The notes beneath the pieces were generated by a model. It was not told the DNA's origin and made no database searches. It worked only from the letters and a program-made list of their open reading frames with translations. Positions 37,012 through 42,539 of a stretch of DNA of 64,000 nt are shown here, piece after piece (position 1 is the stretch's first letter; each line of letters opens with the position of its first letter). Source of the DNA: Enterobacteria phage GEC-3S; sequence record HE978309. One strand, given 5' to 3'. A program made the position numbers and the translations under genes.

Positions 37012-38235
37012 TTATACTGCCATTTGAGCGGTGATCGCTGGATGGCTTTGATAGTTGTGAATTTTAAAATCTTTCGGAGTCTTTGTCAATACCTCATCTA
37101 AAGATTTAAATTCCGGCAACTCAATTGTTGGTTTATCAAACGGAACACGGCTTAACTGTTCCATAACTTGATCAAAATGGTTTTTGTAAATGTGGCAATC
37201 CCCACACTGATAAACCAGTTCGCCAACTTCTAACCCGCAAATCTTCGCGATGATATGCGTTAACAGTGCATAGCTCGCTACGTTGAACGGATTCCCTAAA
37301 AAGAGATCATTCGAACGCATGAAAAATAAACAACTCAATTTGTTGTCGTTGGAAACATAAAACTGTACCATCGGATGACATACACCTAACACAGCATTAT
37401 GCGTTTCCTGTACGTTCCATGAATCAATGATAATACGACGACTATACGGATCATTCTTGATCATGTCAATAACTTTTTGTAACTGGTCTTCCCAAATCTT
37501 CGGGCGATAGACATATTCTTCATCGTCTTTAGTGCTTGATGTGTCTACGTCCATACTAACAAACATCGTGGTATCCGGTGCTATAATATCCCCACCCAGA
37601 TAATCACTATCAAGCAGATAACCGAAATAACCATCATCTACCCATTCCTGGAATCCCCACAAGCAATATGCATCATTAACAAAATTAGATTGAGTCTTCC
37701 AGTGGTCTGCTACCAGAATATAATCAAACTCTTCATAACGCATACCACGCCAGATAGCACATAAACGGTCTTCTGTGTCATTGGTTGGCGTAAAGTCTTC
37801 TACCCACGGGTGCTTAAATGTATGTGTATATTTGCTCTTAACGCGCTTAATTTTGATTTCACCATGTGGATGAATCGGTTTGCGTCGCCACGCCATACCA
37901 TACATATTGCCGACATTATAACCATTGAATCGCAAGGGATTCTTTTCTTTCATATCAAGACAGTTGCCGCGCCAAATATCAAAGGCTTCCTCGTCAAACT
38001 TGCCGCGTGTAATTTCCTGTAAGCGACGGCGGTCAAGTGATCCCTCCATAAACCATAGCAATTCGCCAATCACAGAGGCTGTAGCCATCTTTTTAGTGGT
38101 CAGTAATGGGAAACCCTTGCTTAAATCAATTCGCATCTCTGCGCCGAATTTAGAGAGCGTACCTACCCCCGTGCGGTCTTCACGAGGACAGCCATTATCA
38201 AGAACATCACGCAACAGTTTCAAATATTCTTTCAT
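37012..38235 (-). CDS. td: thymidylate synthase with a large internal insertion
   Basis: 407 aa; conserved DRTGVGT, catalytic CHPMVQFYV, SNDLFLGNPFNVASYALL; roughly 120 extra residues between YGMAWRR and DPYSRRII; no intron. Confidence 0.85.
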   Translation of the reverse strand: MKEYLKLLRDVLDNGCPREDRTGVGTLSKFGAEMRIDLSKGFPLLTTKKMATASVIGELLWFMEGSLDRRRLQEITRGKFDEEAFDIWRGNCLDMKEKNPLRFNGYNVGNMYGMAWRRKPIHPHGEIKIKRVKSKYTHTFKHPWVEDFTPTNDTEDRLCAIWRGMRYEEFDYILVADHWKTQSNFVNDAYCLWGFQEWVDDGYFGYLLDSDYLGGDIIAPDTTMFVSMDVDTSSTKDDEEYVYRPKIWEDQLQKVIDMIKNDPYSRRIIIDSWNVQETHNAVLGVCHPMVQFYVSNDNKLSCLFFMRSNDLFLGNPFNVASYALLTHIIAKICGLEVGELVYQCGDCHIYKNHFDQVMEQLSRVPFDKPTIELPEFKSLDEVLTKTPKDFKIHNYQSHPAITAQMAV

Positions 38236-39154: not shown

Positions 39155-39484
39155 TCAAATCAGTTTGAAATAGTTTTCGTTTACATTTTCTTCTGTGATT
39201 GCTGTCTTAAATTCTTGACCGTTATCCGGTGTGATGAAATAACGGTCAGAATAATCACGAAAACGTTTTAAGTGAGATACCCCAACATTAACACCATTTT
39301 CCCAAAAACGAAAGGTAATCATTTTTGGTTCATATCGATAGTCGCTGGTTAACACAGTACCATCACCGCGACGGGCTTCATAAACCGTAATACATTCACG
39401 ATTAGCGGCTTTAAGGCATTCTTCAATAGTGCCGCATGAGATAATACTTACTTTTTCATCTACGATTTGTTCTACAGTCCACAT
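39155..39484 (-). CDS. hypothetical protein (~109 aa)
   Basis: ORF track 39155..39517; the first ATG lies inside the promoter -10; second ATG has GAGAGGAT RBS. Confidence 0.45.
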   Translation of the reverse strand: MWTVEQIVDEKVSIISCGTIEECLKAANRECITVYEARRGDGTVLTSDYRYEPKMITFRFWENGVNVGVSHLKRFRDYSDRYFITPDNGQEFKTAITEENVNENYFKLI

Positions 39485-39512
39485 AATATAATCCTCTCTT
39501 TGTTTCGATATG

Positions 39513-39554
39513 TGCATTATACACTATTGCGTTACGCTGTCAACTCTTTTTCAA
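39513..39554 (-). promoter_or_regulatory. early promoter (sigma70-like)
   Basis: TTGACA, about 16 nt, TATAAT. Confidence 0.5.
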
Positions 39555-40710
39555 AAGATTTTACGATATACATGATGGTGCTCAATTCGGACGGCGCTAC
39601 TGTCTCTGTGTAGCCATCCGGCATATCTTCTTTCGAGATATAGGAAGTTTTACCTTTCATTGCTTCCTTGATTTTGTTCTCTAATTCTAAGATCTTTTGA
39701 CCGTCTTGTAAAGTCAATTCATAAAAGATCTCATGATCGAACTTTGAAACACGAGATTGGTTTCTCATGCGCTCATGTGTTTCTTTGTTTGTTATTCCAA
39801 ATTTCACGCCAACAAAGGAATCATTGTTGGTTAATTTCTGTATATAAAGAGTTCCTGTCTTTAATGCCTGATAACCATGCTTAGAACACAACGGGCAGCG
39901 TGTTCCGCGATTAACAAAATTATCAATAGTTACATCCCATTCATGGTTACGTTCGCATGTCAGAAGTATTCTTGTTAATGCACCTTTCCACTTTCCTGAA
40001 ATCCCAATAAATTTTAGTCTGTTGGTTTCGCATATTTTTTCAATTTGTTTTAATCGGTCACTTTTTGTTATTGGTGCTGTTCCGCTACATTTGCGACACC
40101 GACGACCTAGTTTGAACTTATCATAACTTTGTTCGTAAATGTGATTATTAGGACACTCAAATTTAAGTTTAGTTTTTGTTCCTCTCCATTCCCCAATTAT
40201 ACCCAAAAATTTATAATCTCCTTTATTTTCATTTATATAAGATAAGGAATCTTCTTTATCATGCATCTTGCCCCCGTTACATAAAGGACATCTTGTTTTT
40301 TGATGAATGAAATCTGTATATGTTGGTTGGTATGTGTGTCCGTTTGTACAGTTCATAATGAGTCTTGTTCTGCTATTTTTATACTCCCCACCAACAAAAC
40401 CAACAAATACATCGTTTGTTTCTTGTTTTATTCTTTCTATCACATTGTTTGGGTTTAATCTTTGAGAATCAACCACACATTTCTTACACGAAACTTTTTT
40501 CCTGATATTTGCTAGAGTTGATGTGTATTCATGCTTGTTATTACATAATATAAGAGCTTTTGTTTTGAGACCAGACCATTCTCCAACAAACCCCATGAAA
40601 GAATAACCAACTTCCAAACATGATTTTTTTACAACATTTTCCCAATAGAAGGGAGTTTTCGTGTTTCCTTTTATTTCTATACGAATCTCATGTGCTTGAC
40701 GTACTAACAT
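39532..40710 (-). CDS. protein with four zinc-ribbon repeats and a C-terminal T5orf172/GIY-YIG-like domain
   Basis: ORF track 39532..40755; start MLVRQAHEIR with GGAGGA RBS; four repeats of G..G.W.G..TK....C...H.Y...(F)....RC..C; C-terminal GTLYIQKL...VGVKFGITN. Confidence 0.55.
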   Translation of the reverse strand: MLVRQAHEIRIEIKGNTKTPFYWENVVKKSCLEVGYSFMGFVGEWSGLKTKALILCNNKHEYTSTLANIRKKVSCKKCVVDSQRLNPNNVIERIKQETNDVFVGFVGGEYKNSRTRLIMNCTNGHTYQPTYTDFIHQKTRCPLCNGGKMHDKEDSLSYINENKGDYKFLGIIGEWRGTKTKLKFECPNNHIYEQSYDKFKLGRRCRKCSGTAPITKSDRLKQIEKICETNRLKFIGISGKWKGALTRILLTCERNHEWDVTIDNFVNRGTRCPLCSKHGYQALKTGTLYIQKLTNNDSFVGVKFGITNKETHERMRNQSRVSKFDHEIFYELTLQDGQKILELENKIKEAMKGKTSYISKEDMPDGYTETVAPSELSTIMYIVKSFEKELTA

Positions 40711-40737
40711 ATTTTTATCCTCCGTTGTTTCGATGAT

Positions 40738-40779
40738 TGTATTATACATTACCACATCAGCATGTCAATACATTTTCAT
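40738..40779 (-). promoter_or_regulatory. early promoter (sigma70-like)
   Basis: TTGACA, 16-17 nt, TATAAT, directly after the gp32 terminator. Confidence 0.5.
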
Positions 40780-40789
40780 AAAATTTTAG

Positions 40790-40820
40790 GCAATAAAAAA
40801 GCCTTCCCGAAGGAAGGCTT
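40790..40820 (-). terminator. rho-independent terminator after gene 32
   Basis: hairpin AAGCCUUCC-UUCG-GGAAGGCUU then UUUUUUAU. Confidence 0.55.
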
Positions 40821-40829
40821 TAAAATTCA

Positions 40830-41804
40830 TTACATCGCTAACAGAGAGTCAAGGTCATCCAGATCAGAAGCGGAGGAAGTACCGCCACCCAGGTCCAGAG
40901 ATGCCATCAGGTCATCAGCGGAAGAATCTAACGCCGTGCTAGCTGCGTTAATACCAACTACAGTGCTAGCTGCGGTAATACCAGAGTCGAATGCATTCAT
41001 CTGTGCGTCAAAATCGTCAAGCTGACTGTTAATCGCTGCCGCAGCACTGGAAGCCGCAGCACCCGCTACCATAGAAACGCCCATAGTTTTCTTAAATTTG
41101 GTTTCCAGTTCATCGAACGGTTTAAACTGGCTAGGCGCTACAATCTCACTCAGATCAACCATGTTTTCCATCAGATATTTCTGATATGCTTCGTCTTCAA
41201 TCTTCGGAAGCTGTGATTGCTGCATGAAACGAGAATCATCATAGTTCTGGTGTTTATCAACCTTCTTAGCTTTCAGGAGGAAGTTAGCACCGGAGAACAC
41301 ACAAGTTACATCTACCGGAACTTCGCCCATGTCGGTATTCACGTTCACCATTGCAACGATCTTATCATAAATTTTCTGACCGAATCGGAATTTGAATACT
41401 TTACCTTCATTTTCTGGTGCTTGAGGATCTTTCAGTACAAGAATGTTTGCGTAGTAAGACGCTTTACGCTTAATCAGTTGCCATTCGGTTTTATCGGTAT
41501 TGTATAGGTCTTTTTCGTTAATATATTTGCACACAGGGCAAGAATCAAAATCACCGTGGGTGCTGGAGCAGTTTTCCCAATACCATTTACCATTAACTTT
41601 GAAGGAATGGTTTACCAGTTTCACAATCGGCAGACCGTCTTCTGTCTTAGACGGCAGGAAGCGAATCAGGGCTTCACCGTTACCTGCTGCATCAGTCTTA
41701 ATCTTCCACTCTTTCGGATCTTCTTTTGAGAAACCGTTGCCACCTTTCAGTGCGGCCAGTTGAGCTTGCAGTTTGGAAGAATCTTGGCGTTTAAACATAT
41801 TCAC
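40830..41804 (-). CDS. 32: gp32 single-stranded DNA-binding protein
   Basis: 324 aa; zinc-binding C/H cluster and acidic Ser/Asp-rich C-terminal tail as in T4 gp32; synteny. Confidence 0.9.
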
Positions 41805-41858
41805 TATTCCTTCTTTTGATTAATTTACTAGACTATTATACAGATTTAAATTTACTTG

Positions 41859-42539
41859 TCAACTATTTGTTTCGGCTTTTAATTGAGATATTTCTTTACA
41901 CTCTTTAACTACTTTAACAAATAATGCTCTTGCTTTTGCGGCGTCAATAACAAGTAGTTTCTTGTACGCCTTCATTTTAACACTATAAGTTTGCCAAATC
42001 AAGTCTTTGGCTACCTTGTCGTGTTCGTCGATTATATTTAGAAAGCTATCTAACAACATAAACGACTCAAACGATATAATCCGATTTTGCAGTAGTTTAA
42101 AGATACCGCTAGTTTCGGTTGCGGGATTGTATGTAATTAGCTCTTTAAGAGTAACCCCGCGTTTCTCGGAGAAGTATACCAGACTTTTAATGTCATCGTC
42201 AAATCTTGTTGCTGCATCGGTTATCTTTCCTATGTATTCCATATAAAAGCCGTATGCGTCAACATCAGTGATTTCACCTACCCATGCATCGGTATTAGCT
42301 ACCAGATTGCTTAGGAATAAGAAGTATAATTCTCTTAGATTGTACTTTTCCGCTAATTTTGCGAAATAATACTTATCTCTGCGTTTATTGAATGCGGCAT
42401 CAGACAACCGCATCCTCCAATTGTATTTTACGCAATCATAACGCCCGTTCATATGAGCTTTCATCATGCAATATAACATATACACAGATTTAGCATTAAT
42501 TCGCATATCTGGATCTGGAGGAAGACGGTTTCTGATCAT
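41859..42539 (-). CDS. 59: gp59 helicase loader
   Basis: 226 aa; KSVYMLYCMMKAHMNGRYD...YNWRMRLSDAAFNKRRDKYYF matches T4 gp59. Confidence 0.9.
   Translation of the reverse strand: MIRNRLPPDPDMRINAKSVYMLYCMMKAHMNGRYDCVKYNWRMRLSDAAFNKRRDKYYFAKLAEKYNLRELYFLFLSNLVANTDAWVGEITDVDAYGFYMEYIGKITDAATRFDDDIKSLVYFSEKRGVTLKELITYNPATETSGIFKLLQNRIISFESFMLLDSFLNIIDEHDKVAKDLIWQTYSVKMKAYKKLLVIDAAKARALFVKVVKECKEISQLKAETNS

What the first reader, a model, noticed from the sequence alone, without database searches (positions are those of the whole stretch)
39532..40710. Protein with four tandem zinc-ribbon repeats fused to a T5orf172/GIY-YIG-like domain, between frd and gene 32
The ORF has four consecutive modules of about 45 aa with the pattern G..G.W.G..TK....C...H.Y...(F)....RC..C, followed by a C-terminal region (GTLYIQKL...VGVKFGITNKETHERMRNQ) that resembles the T5orf172 DNA-binding/GIY-YIG-like fold. 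The architecture suggests a sequence-specific DNA-binding or nicking protein, possibly homing-endonuclease-related, in a region where T4 has small frd.x ORFs.
Basis: partly seen in the sequence, partly recalled or inferred. Interest (0 to 1): 0.45.

Follow-up and report, generated by a model that had tools for sequence, protein, structure and literature searches.

The report
Phage homing-endonuclease gene with four zinc fingers
This is an ordinary, already-described kind of selfish phage gene: a DNA-cutting enzyme (T5orf172 branch of the GIY-YIG nucleases) guided by four zinc-finger DNA-binding modules, sitting in a swappable slot next to the single-strand-binding protein gene of an RB49-like coliphage.

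Summary
Window 39532-40710 (minus strand) encodes a 392-aa protein with four tandem ~65-aa modules, each with a C-x3-H...C-x2-C zinc site. They are followed by a ~110-aa C-terminal domain.

The modules are CapR-homology/DUF4379 zinc fingers (Pfam, 100.6 bits). In the model they look like treble clefs, not zinc ribbons.

The window is a Krischvirus (RB49-like) phage. In relatives the same slot holds endonuclease alleles with 2 to 6 fingers, an unrelated 109-aa ORF, or nothing. The slot is bounded by duplicated consensus sigma-70 promoters. One of them lies in the gene's last codons.

The best reading is a free-standing homing endonuclease in a promoter-bounded cassette. This repeated-finger T5orf172 architecture was published in 2023. 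Cleavage, target site and homing are inferred, not shown. Interest is low.

The parts
39532..40710 (-). Endonuclease gene: 392 codons plus stop. The product matches PHROG 681 'endonuclease' at E 1.5e-100.
40459..40650 (-). CapR/DUF4379 zinc-finger module 1 (aa 21-84). Zinc ligands C56, H60, C75, C78.
40261..40458 (-). Zinc-finger module 2 (aa 85-150). Zinc ligands C121, H125, C141, C144.
40063..40260 (-). Zinc-finger module 3 (aa 151-216). Zinc ligands C186, H190, C205, C208.
39865..40062 (-). Zinc-finger module 4 (aa 217-282). Zinc ligands C252, H256, C272, C275. This is the best Pfam CapR stretch (aa 221-276).
39535..39864 (-). C-terminal T5orf172/MUG113-type GIY-YIG nuclease domain (aa 283-392). 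Invariant residues: Y289, K303, G305, R314, E344, G366, E369, T370.
40741..40768 (-). Consensus sigma-70 promoter (TTGACA-16-TATAAT, 12 of 12) directly upstream of the gene. It is shared with every other occupant of the slot.
40718..40723 (-). GGAGGA ribosome-binding site, 7 nt upstream of the ATG.
40798..40821 (-). Gene 32 terminator hairpin. Together with the promoter that follows, it has the form of a PeSL (promoter-early stem-loop) cassette.
   Evidence: PMC2839356
39516..39543 (-). Second 12-of-12 sigma-70 promoter, driving the downstream small ORF. Its -35 TTGACA is formed by the last codons of the endonuclease gene (GAG TTG ACA GCG TAA).
39500..39570 (.). Right copy of a 71-nt direct repeat (70% identical to 40725-40795) that brackets the cassette.
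40725..40795 (.). Left copy of the same 71-nt direct repeat.
40830..41804 (-). Gene 32 (single-strand DNA-binding protein), the upstream neighbour.
39155..39484 (-). Small conserved ORF (phrog_16287, unknown function), the downstream neighbour. The likely start is the ATG of MWTVEQ, not the ATG at 39517.

Best explanation
The gene encodes a free-standing homing endonuclease of the T5orf172 branch of the GIY-YIG superfamily.

Four zinc-finger modules of the CapR/DUF4379 type, joined like beads on a string, together read a long DNA site. The C-terminal GIY-YIG-type domain then cuts nearby, with Y289, R314 and the metal-binding E369 as the predicted catalytic residues. In a mixed infection the enzyme would cut a related phage genome that lacks this allele. 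Repair from the endonuclease-bearing genome would then copy the gene and its flanks across.

The gene sits in a slot between gene 32 and a small ORF upstream of frd. Near-identical strong early promoters bound the slot. The downstream gene's promoter is built into the endonuclease's last codons, which discourages loss of the gene. Homologous recombination between the bounding promoter repeats gives a second route for swapping cassettes.

Shown here: the domain architecture, the fold, the conserved residues, the locus polymorphism and the promoter duplication. Inferred: zinc and DNA binding, cleavage, the target site, and homing.
For: Architecture:
- Pfam CapR scores 100.6 bits in 4 stretches, and DUF4379 44 bits. 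PHROG 681 'endonuclease' matches at E 1.5e-100.
- The four modules are significantly related to one another (z 13.8-22.9) and each has a full set of four zinc ligands.

Nuclease domain:
- phmmer of aa 281-392 finds 399 proteins at E <= 0.001. In nearly all of the 150 listed, the match lies at the C-terminal end; a few are short fragments.
- Of 69 diverse homologues, 30 match MUG113 and 11 match T5orf172 at E <= 0.01.
- Isolated homologous domains pass the T5orf172 gathering score (30.4, 27.4 and 25.2 bits; cut-off 20).
- The domain model has pLDDT 96.8 and pTM 0.88.
- BFVD matches include proteins named GIY-YIG, homing endonuclease and T5 Orf172.
- Y289, K303, G305, R314, E344, G366, E369 and T370 are invariant in 54-69 sequences.

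Mobility signature:
- The same slot is empty in PHB13 and FL20.
- It holds an unrelated 109-aa ORF in 28 records.
- It holds endonuclease alleles of 281-541 aa with 2-6 fingers in about 26 records.
- Alleles share the last ~180 nt at 95-98% identity, while the finger arrays are unrelated at the DNA level.
- The promoter is duplicated and one copy is embedded in the gene.

Literature:
- Repeated CapR/DUF723/DUF4379 fingers on T5orf172 homing endonucleases, and domain swapping, are described in PMC10448857.
- CapR binds DNA through its cysteines (PMC8096241).
- Odn's T5orf172 nuclease activity depends on a glutamate (PMC10448857).
- Embedded promoters in T4 seg/mob genes, and SegG beside gene 32, are described in PMC2988022.
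Against: - The window protein itself does not reach any Pfam nuclease threshold: MUG113 scores 14 bits (E 0.08, cut-off 22.3) and T5orf172 gives no hit.
- I did not check residue-by-residue that Y289, R314 and E369 match the catalytic residues of solved GIY-YIG enzymes by superposition.
- No flank polymorphism separates endonuclease-bearing from endonuclease-free genomes, so no co-conversion tract or protected target site is visible.
- An unrelated ORF shares exactly the same boundaries. Promoter-repeat recombination alone could therefore explain the polymorphism.
- No member of this Krischvirus group has been tested experimentally.
Confidence: 0.75

Rival explanations
1. The protein is a domesticated derivative, not a selfish homing enzyme. 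It could be an early-expressed nuclease that excludes co-infecting relatives or satellites, as Odn does. It could also be a CapR- or I-TevI-like repressor that binds promoter regions, for example the duplicated early promoters around it.
For: - The gene is driven by a 12-of-12 sigma-70 early-type promoter. According to PMC2988022, the promoters specific to T4 homing endonuclease genes are middle or late, never early.
- CapR and Odn are documented domestications of the same domains.
- Truly empty target alleles are rare: about 2 of 57 records.
Against: - All putative catalytic residues are invariant, which argues against a pure repressor.
- The presence/absence and allele-replacement pattern at one intergenic slot is typical of free-standing homing endonuclease genes.
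- No satellite-derived DNA-binding domain is present.
- Exclusion of co-infecting relatives is mechanistically the same act as homing.
Confidence: 0.14
2. The gene is a passive passenger of a promoter-bounded (PeSL-type) cassette. It moves and is replaced only by homologous recombination between the repeated promoters, and the nuclease is inactive or decaying.
For: - The unrelated orf109 cassette has identical left and right boundaries.
- A 71-nt direct repeat brackets the gene.
- The single promoter at the empty PHB13 site looks like a hybrid of the two copies.
- PeSL-mediated shuffling has been demonstrated in RB49 and phi1 (PMC2839356).
Against: - All seven alleles examined have intact ORFs.
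- The nuclease residues are invariant across distant homologues.
- Finger arrays differ in number and sequence while every module keeps its zinc ligands, which suggests selection on function.
Confidence: 0.1
3. The repeats or the ORF are chance features of AT-rich phage DNA and do not form a real gene.
For: None found.
Against: - Module similarity has z-scores of 13.8-22.9.
- Pfam and PHROG matches are strong.
- 656 phage records hold homologues.
- Domain models are confident.
- A consensus promoter and ribosome-binding site precede the ORF.
Confidence: 0.01

Closest known systems
T5orf172 homing endonucleases with repeated CapR/DUF723/DUF4379 zinc fingers (ICP1, T5-like, Plateaulakevirus and VpaJT-like phages; Barth et al. 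2023, PMC10448857)
   Same: - N-terminal array of repeated zinc-finger DNA-binding modules and a C-terminal T5orf172 nuclease domain.
- Position next to an essential replication gene.
- Alleles that keep one domain and swap the other.
- T5 protein T5.141 is 34% identical over 244 aa.
   Different: - This one is in a T4-like (Straboviridae, Krischvirus) phage, a group that paper does not highlight for T5orf172 genes.
- Its nuclease domain is too divergent to pass Pfam T5orf172/MUG113 directly.
- The first zinc-ligand pair is C-x3-H, not the CxxC of CapR.
- One locus carries alleles with 2 to 6 fingers.
PLE CapR (Netter et al. 2021, PMC8096241)
   Same: The zinc-finger DNA-binding domain is homologous; the Pfam CapR family is named after it. 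In CapR, the cysteines are required for DNA binding.
   Different: CapR is a single-module repressor encoded by a phage satellite and has no nuclease domain. The protein here has four modules plus an apparently intact nuclease domain.
T4 Seg free-standing GIY-YIG homing endonucleases, especially SegG beside gene 32 (Edgell et al. 2010, PMC2988022)
   Same: - Free-standing gene in an intergenic slot adjacent to gene 32, in the same orientation as its neighbours.
- GIY-YIG superfamily nuclease.
- A promoter for the downstream gene embedded in the endonuclease coding sequence.
   Different: - The domain order is reversed: here the nuclease is C-terminal.
- It belongs to the T5orf172 branch, not the canonical GIY-YIG branch.
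- DNA recognition is by a zinc-finger array.
- It lies downstream of gene 32, whereas segG lies between genes 59 and 32.
- It has its own consensus early promoter, which the T4 endonuclease genes lack.
PeSL cassettes of RB49/phi1 (Arbiol et al. 2010, PMC2839356)
   Same: A strong sigma-70 promoter with an upstream stem-loop precedes a variable gene. Repeated promoter sequences bracket the variable segment. Unrelated genes occupy the same slot in close relatives.
   Different: The downstream promoter copy lies inside coding sequence and has no stem-loop. The cargo here is itself a putative mobility enzyme.
ICP1 Odn (origin-directed nuclease)
   Same: It has a T5orf172 nuclease domain whose activity depends on a conserved glutamate (as reported in PMC10448857).
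   Different: [quoted passage not shown]

Membership tests
T5orf172/MUG113 branch of the GIY-YIG nuclease superfamily (Pfam PF10544, PF13455) | The protein itself matches the Pfam profile at the gathering score. | tested here: not met
   MUG113 scores 14 bits (E 0.08; cut-off 22.3). T5orf172 gives no hit at E <= 10.
T5orf172/MUG113 branch of the GIY-YIG nuclease superfamily (Pfam PF10544, PF13455) | Homology to proteins that do pass the profile (transitive membership). | tested here: met
   Of 69 homologues, 30 hit MUG113 and 11 hit T5orf172 at E <= 0.01. Isolated homologous C-terminal domains score 30.4, 27.4 and 25.2 bits for T5orf172 (cut-off 20), and one covers profile positions 4-100 of 101. 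These were taken from homologues found by phmmer at E of about 1e-8 to 1e-14.
T5orf172/MUG113 branch of the GIY-YIG nuclease superfamily (Pfam PF10544, PF13455) | GIY-YIG alpha/beta fold. | tested here: met
T5orf172/MUG113 branch of the GIY-YIG nuclease superfamily (Pfam PF10544, PF13455) | Conserved Tyr in strand 1, Gly in strand 2, Arg in helix 1, and a metal-binding Glu. | tested here: met
   Y289, G305, R314 and E369 are invariant in 54-69 sequences and sit in the expected secondary-structure elements. Their one-to-one match to catalytic residues of solved enzymes is inferred, not superposed.
T5orf172/MUG113 branch of the GIY-YIG nuclease superfamily (Pfam PF10544, PF13455) | Metal-dependent DNA cleavage. 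| not testable with these tools
   This needs biochemistry.
CapR-homology / DUF4379 zinc-finger DNA-binding domain (PF21817, PF14311) | Profile match above the gathering score. | tested here: met
   CapR scores 100.6 bits (cut-off 24.2) in 4 stretches. DUF4379 scores 44.3 bits (cut-off 24.5).
CapR-homology / DUF4379 zinc-finger DNA-binding domain (PF21817, PF14311) | Four zinc ligands per module. | tested here: met
   Each of the four modules has C-x3-H...C-x2-C. The cysteines are invariant or nearly so among homologues. The first pair is Cys/His, whereas CapR has CxxC.
CapR-homology / DUF4379 zinc-finger DNA-binding domain (PF21817, PF14311) | Sequence-specific DNA binding. | not testable with these tools
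   It has been shown only for PLE CapR (PMC8096241).
   In the AlphaFold model the second pair (for example C75/C78 and C205/C208) sits at the N-terminus of a helix (H76-83, H206-209). That is a treble-clef arrangement, and Pfam also describes DUF4379 as a treble clef. This judgement rests on a model only.
Free-standing homing endonuclease gene | Presence/absence polymorphism at one intergenic site among close relatives. | tested here: met
   PHB13 and FL20 are empty. Twenty-eight records carry orf109. About 26 records carry endonuclease alleles.
Free-standing homing endonuclease gene | Co-conversion tract or protective polymorphism in the flanks. | tested here: inconclusive
   Across 11 loci, no flank position segregates with the presence of the endonuclease.
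Free-standing homing endonuclease gene | Cleavage of the endonuclease-free allele, and super-Mendelian inheritance. | not testable with these tools
   This needs cleavage assays and phage crosses.
PeSL (promoter-early stem-loop) cassette of RB49-type phages | A strong sigma-70 promoter with an associated stem-loop, repeated at the borders of a variable gene. | tested here: met
   The hairpin at 40821-40798 is followed by a 12-of-12 promoter at 40768-40741. A second 12-of-12 promoter lies at 39543-39516, though without a hairpin. A 71-nt direct repeat brackets the gene. Unrelated cargo shares the same borders.

The most novel reading that the evidence does not exclude
The slot downstream of gene 32 could be a specificity-diversifying battleground. 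One conserved nuclease 3' end, with its embedded promoter, would be repeatedly recombined with different arrays of 2 to 6 zinc fingers. It would compete with an alternative 109-aa cassette that might confer resistance. The endonuclease would be expressed early, unlike T4 homing endonuclease genes, and so act as an inter-phage exclusion weapon between co-infecting Krischviruses instead of a simple selfish gene.
Probability: 0.12. Interest if true: 0.45.

Novelty: new member of a known kind. Interest (0 to 1): 0.2.

Why it matters
It matters modestly. It places a T5orf172-type, zinc-finger-array homing endonuclease in T4-like (Krischvirus) phages, right beside gene 32, where T4 itself carries SegG. 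One genus also provides a natural series of alleles with 2 to 6 fingers on a nearly identical nuclease domain. That series could be used to work out how CapR-type finger arrays encode DNA specificity, and whether such arrays can be reprogrammed. It also shows two known mobility mechanisms, homing and promoter-repeat (PeSL) recombination, overlapping at one locus. None of this changes current understanding.

Tried and rejected
- **Full-length model against PDB (Foldseek).** No match reached E <= 0.001, and the hits were unrelated multi-domain proteins. The beads-on-a-string model (pTM 0.37) is unsuitable as a single query, so I modelled the C-terminal domain alone instead.
- **Sequence and profile searches of the C-terminal domain against PDB sequences.** Nothing meaningful was found.
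- **afdb50 fold library.** It was not available, so BFVD was used.
- **NCBIfam.** Only a meaningless weak DrmB hit appeared.
- **MIZ6/G5211 109-aa ORF as a remnant of the endonuclease.** Rejected: there is no protein similarity and no Pfam or PHROG hit.
- **GTG start at 40755 (407-aa ORF).** Rejected: it lies inside the promoter, and the ATG has a consensus ribosome-binding site.
- **Recent DNA-level duplication of the modules.** Rejected: Tandem Repeats Finder reports no array, and the repeat finder reports no repeat corresponding to the modules.
- **Paralogues elsewhere in the window.** None were found by tblastn.
- **Target-site or co-conversion signal in the flanks.** None was found.
- **NixI nicking nuclease as a relative.** The paper mentions T5orf172 only in passing and is not relevant.

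Full report
**The observation**

The ORF lies on the minus strand at 39532-40710. Its ATG (40710-40708) follows a GGAGGA ribosome-binding site at 40718-40723. The mechanical ORF list extends it to a GTG at 40755.

The protein has four modules starting at aa 38, 102, 168 and 234. The period is therefore 64-66 aa: a ~41-aa conserved core plus a ~24-aa linker that the model predicts to be helical. Each module carries C-x3-H...C-x2-C. All six pairwise module alignments score 81-112, against 22-24 +/- 4-5 for shuffled sequences (z 13.8-22.9). The repeats are old at the DNA level, and Tandem Repeats Finder reports no array.

**The domains**

- *Zinc-finger modules.* Pfam assigns the repeats to the CapR homology domain (PF21817; 100.6 bits against a cut-off of 24.2; four stretches) and to DUF4379, described as a 'probable treble clef zinc finger'. 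PHROGs places the whole protein in phrog_681, 'endonuclease' (E 1.5e-100).
- *Full-length model.* It is confident per domain (mean pLDDT 88.9) but has pTM 0.37, as expected for independent domains on linkers. In each module the first ligand pair flanks a beta-hairpin turn and the second pair sits at the N-terminus of a helix. That is a treble-clef arrangement, not a zinc ribbon. This conclusion rests on the model alone.
- *C-terminal ~110 aa, sequence evidence.* The window protein does not reach any Pfam nuclease threshold; the best is MUG113 at 14 bits, E 0.08. The homology is nevertheless solid.
  - phmmer of aa 281-392 against 1.84 billion representative proteins found 399 hits at E <= 0.001. 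In nearly all of the 150 listed, the match lies at the C-terminal end of the protein.
  - Of 69 diverse homologues, 30 match MUG113 and 11 match T5orf172 at E <= 0.01. Forty-two also carry CapR, 35 carry DUF4379 and 23 carry DUF723.
  - Isolated homologous C-terminal domains pass the T5orf172 gathering score (30.4, 27.4 and 25.2 bits; cut-off 20), one of them across the whole profile.
- *C-terminal domain, structural evidence.*
  - A model of the domain alone is very confident (pLDDT 96.8, pTM 0.88; beta-beta-alpha-beta-alpha-alpha).
  - BFVD gives 91 viral matches at E <= 0.001, including proteins named GIY-YIG, homing endonuclease and T5 Orf172.
- *Conserved residues.* Y289, K303, G305, R314, E344, G366, E369 and T370 are invariant in 54-69 sequences. 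They fall where the GIY, YIG, Arg and Glu elements of the superfamily are expected. That equivalence is inferred, not superposed.

**Genome and locus**

The window is a Krischvirus (RB49-like Straboviridae). Six deposited phages carry this allele within a region that is 94-98% identical at the nucleotide level. Its product is annotated as 'hypothetical protein', 'endonuclease' or 'putative GIY-YIG nuclease family protein'. The gene order is nrdA, td, a small ORF, frd, a small ORF (phrog_16287), this gene, gene 32, gene 59, all on the minus strand.

The slot is polymorphic:

| Occupant of the slot | Phages |
|---|---|
| Empty | PHB13, FL20 |
| Unrelated 109-aa ORF with no family match | MIZ6, G5211 and 26 other records (28 in all) |
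| Endonuclease alleles of 281, 392, 414, 460, 485, 486 and 541 aa, with 2 to 6 fingers | Sf20, this window, kaaroe, FL38, RB49, Whisky, JEP8 |

About 26 records carry the conserved endonuclease 3' end. The alleles share the last ~180 nt at 95-98% identity, which is the level of the genome backbone. Identity then decays, and the finger arrays are unrelated at the DNA level. At the other end, homology among all occupants resumes exactly at the start codon. So the variable segment is the DNA-binding array together with part of the nuclease domain.

**Boundaries**

Three perfect 12-of-12 sigma-70 promoters lie on the minus strand. One is upstream of gene 32, one is upstream of this gene (40768-40741, just after the gene 32 terminator at 40821-40798), and one is at 39543-39516. 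The -35 TTGACA of the last one is formed by the final codons of the endonuclease gene (GAG TTG ACA GCG TAA), and it drives the downstream small ORF.

The two promoter/5'-UTR segments form a 71-nt direct repeat, 70% identical, that brackets the gene. The empty PHB13 site has a single promoter that looks like a hybrid of the two copies. The orf109 cassette has the same two borders.

This is the form of the PeSL cassettes shown to mediate modular shuffling in RB49 and phi1 (PMC2839356). It also matches the 'embedded promoter' arrangement that favours retention of T4 seg and mob genes (PMC2988022). T4 SegG likewise sits next to gene 32, on the other side, and cuts gene 32. One difference from T4 is that this gene has its own early-type promoter. 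The same review reports only middle or late promoters among those specific to T4 endonuclease genes.

**Mechanism**

The best-supported reading is a free-standing homing endonuclease. The four fingers jointly recognise a long site and the GIY-YIG/T5orf172 domain cuts nearby. Repair from the endonuclease-bearing genome then spreads the gene. Recombination between the promoter repeats is a second route for exchange.

CapR-type fingers bind DNA through their cysteines (PMC8096241). A T5orf172 domain has shown glutamate-dependent nuclease activity in Odn (PMC10448857). For this protein, zinc binding, DNA binding, cleavage, the target and homing are all inferred.

I looked for flank polymorphisms that segregate with the endonuclease, as a sign of co-conversion or a protected target, and found none in 11 loci.

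The rivals cannot be excluded. One is a domesticated exclusion nuclease or regulator. The other is a passive passenger of promoter-repeat exchange. The intact ORFs and invariant catalytic residues argue against an inactive protein.

**Comparison and novelty**

Barth et al. 2023 (PMC10448857) described the architecture in detail: repeated CapR/DUF723/DUF4379 fingers, a T5orf172 nuclease, a position beside essential genes, and domain swapping between alleles. They did so for ICP1, T5-like and other phages, and noted that T4 lacks T5orf172 genes.

This is therefore a new, uncharacterised member of a known kind. Its nuclease domain is divergent. Within one genus there is an unusually clear allelic series of 2 to 6 fingers on one nuclease 3' end. 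Interest is low (0.2).

Noticed in passing
window 37012-38235 (-): The thymidylate synthase gene encodes 407 aa, but its match spans only about 276 positions of the PHROG thymidylate synthase profile (profile positions 33-308 of 335). The protein therefore carries an internal insertion of roughly 130 aa (about aa 120-250). RB49 and other Krischviruses share the long form (1233-nt CDS).
   Followed up: no
P0041, P0042, P0050 (homologues; alignment): Some proteins with CapR/DUF4379 finger arrays end in a different C-terminal domain, unrelated to the T5orf172-type one (for example '...RPDFIIEDKKIWIEYDGEFHY...'). By eye it resembles Vsr/DUF559-type PD-(D/E)xK nucleases. That would mean the same finger array is combined with different nuclease types.
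   Followed up: no
L002 2541-2870 (MIZ6); same slot as window 39532-40710: An unrelated 109-aa ORF with no Pfam or PHROG match occupies exactly the same promoter-bounded slot in 28 Krischvirus records, at 95-100% identity. It is about as common as the endonuclease alleles. Its function, and whether it affects endonuclease targeting, are unknown.
   Followed up: partly
L006 1344-2969 (JEP8 allele): The 541-aa JEP8 allele has six very regular, highly similar finger modules ('SKEEY..RLKPIFEKENI.FNGFVGEWKG..TKL.L.C.EGH.FTP....FQ.G.RC..C'). This suggests recent intragenic duplication, unlike the diverged modules in the window.
   Followed up: no
window 39484-39517 (-): The small ORF downstream of the endonuclease is listed from an ATG at 39517 (120 aa). 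The PHROG match starts at residue 12, and the relatives' annotated CDSs begin at the ATG of MWTVEQ (about 39484), which follows its own ribosome-binding site and the embedded promoter.
   Followed up: partly
window 41835-41862, 40741-40768, 39516-39543 (-): Three perfect 12-of-12 sigma-70 consensus promoters lie within 2.4 kb on one strand. The total number of promoter-like sites in the region is no higher than in shuffled sequence (8 found against a mean of 8.9). This is consistent with the PeSL promoter family of RB49-type phages.
   Followed up: partly
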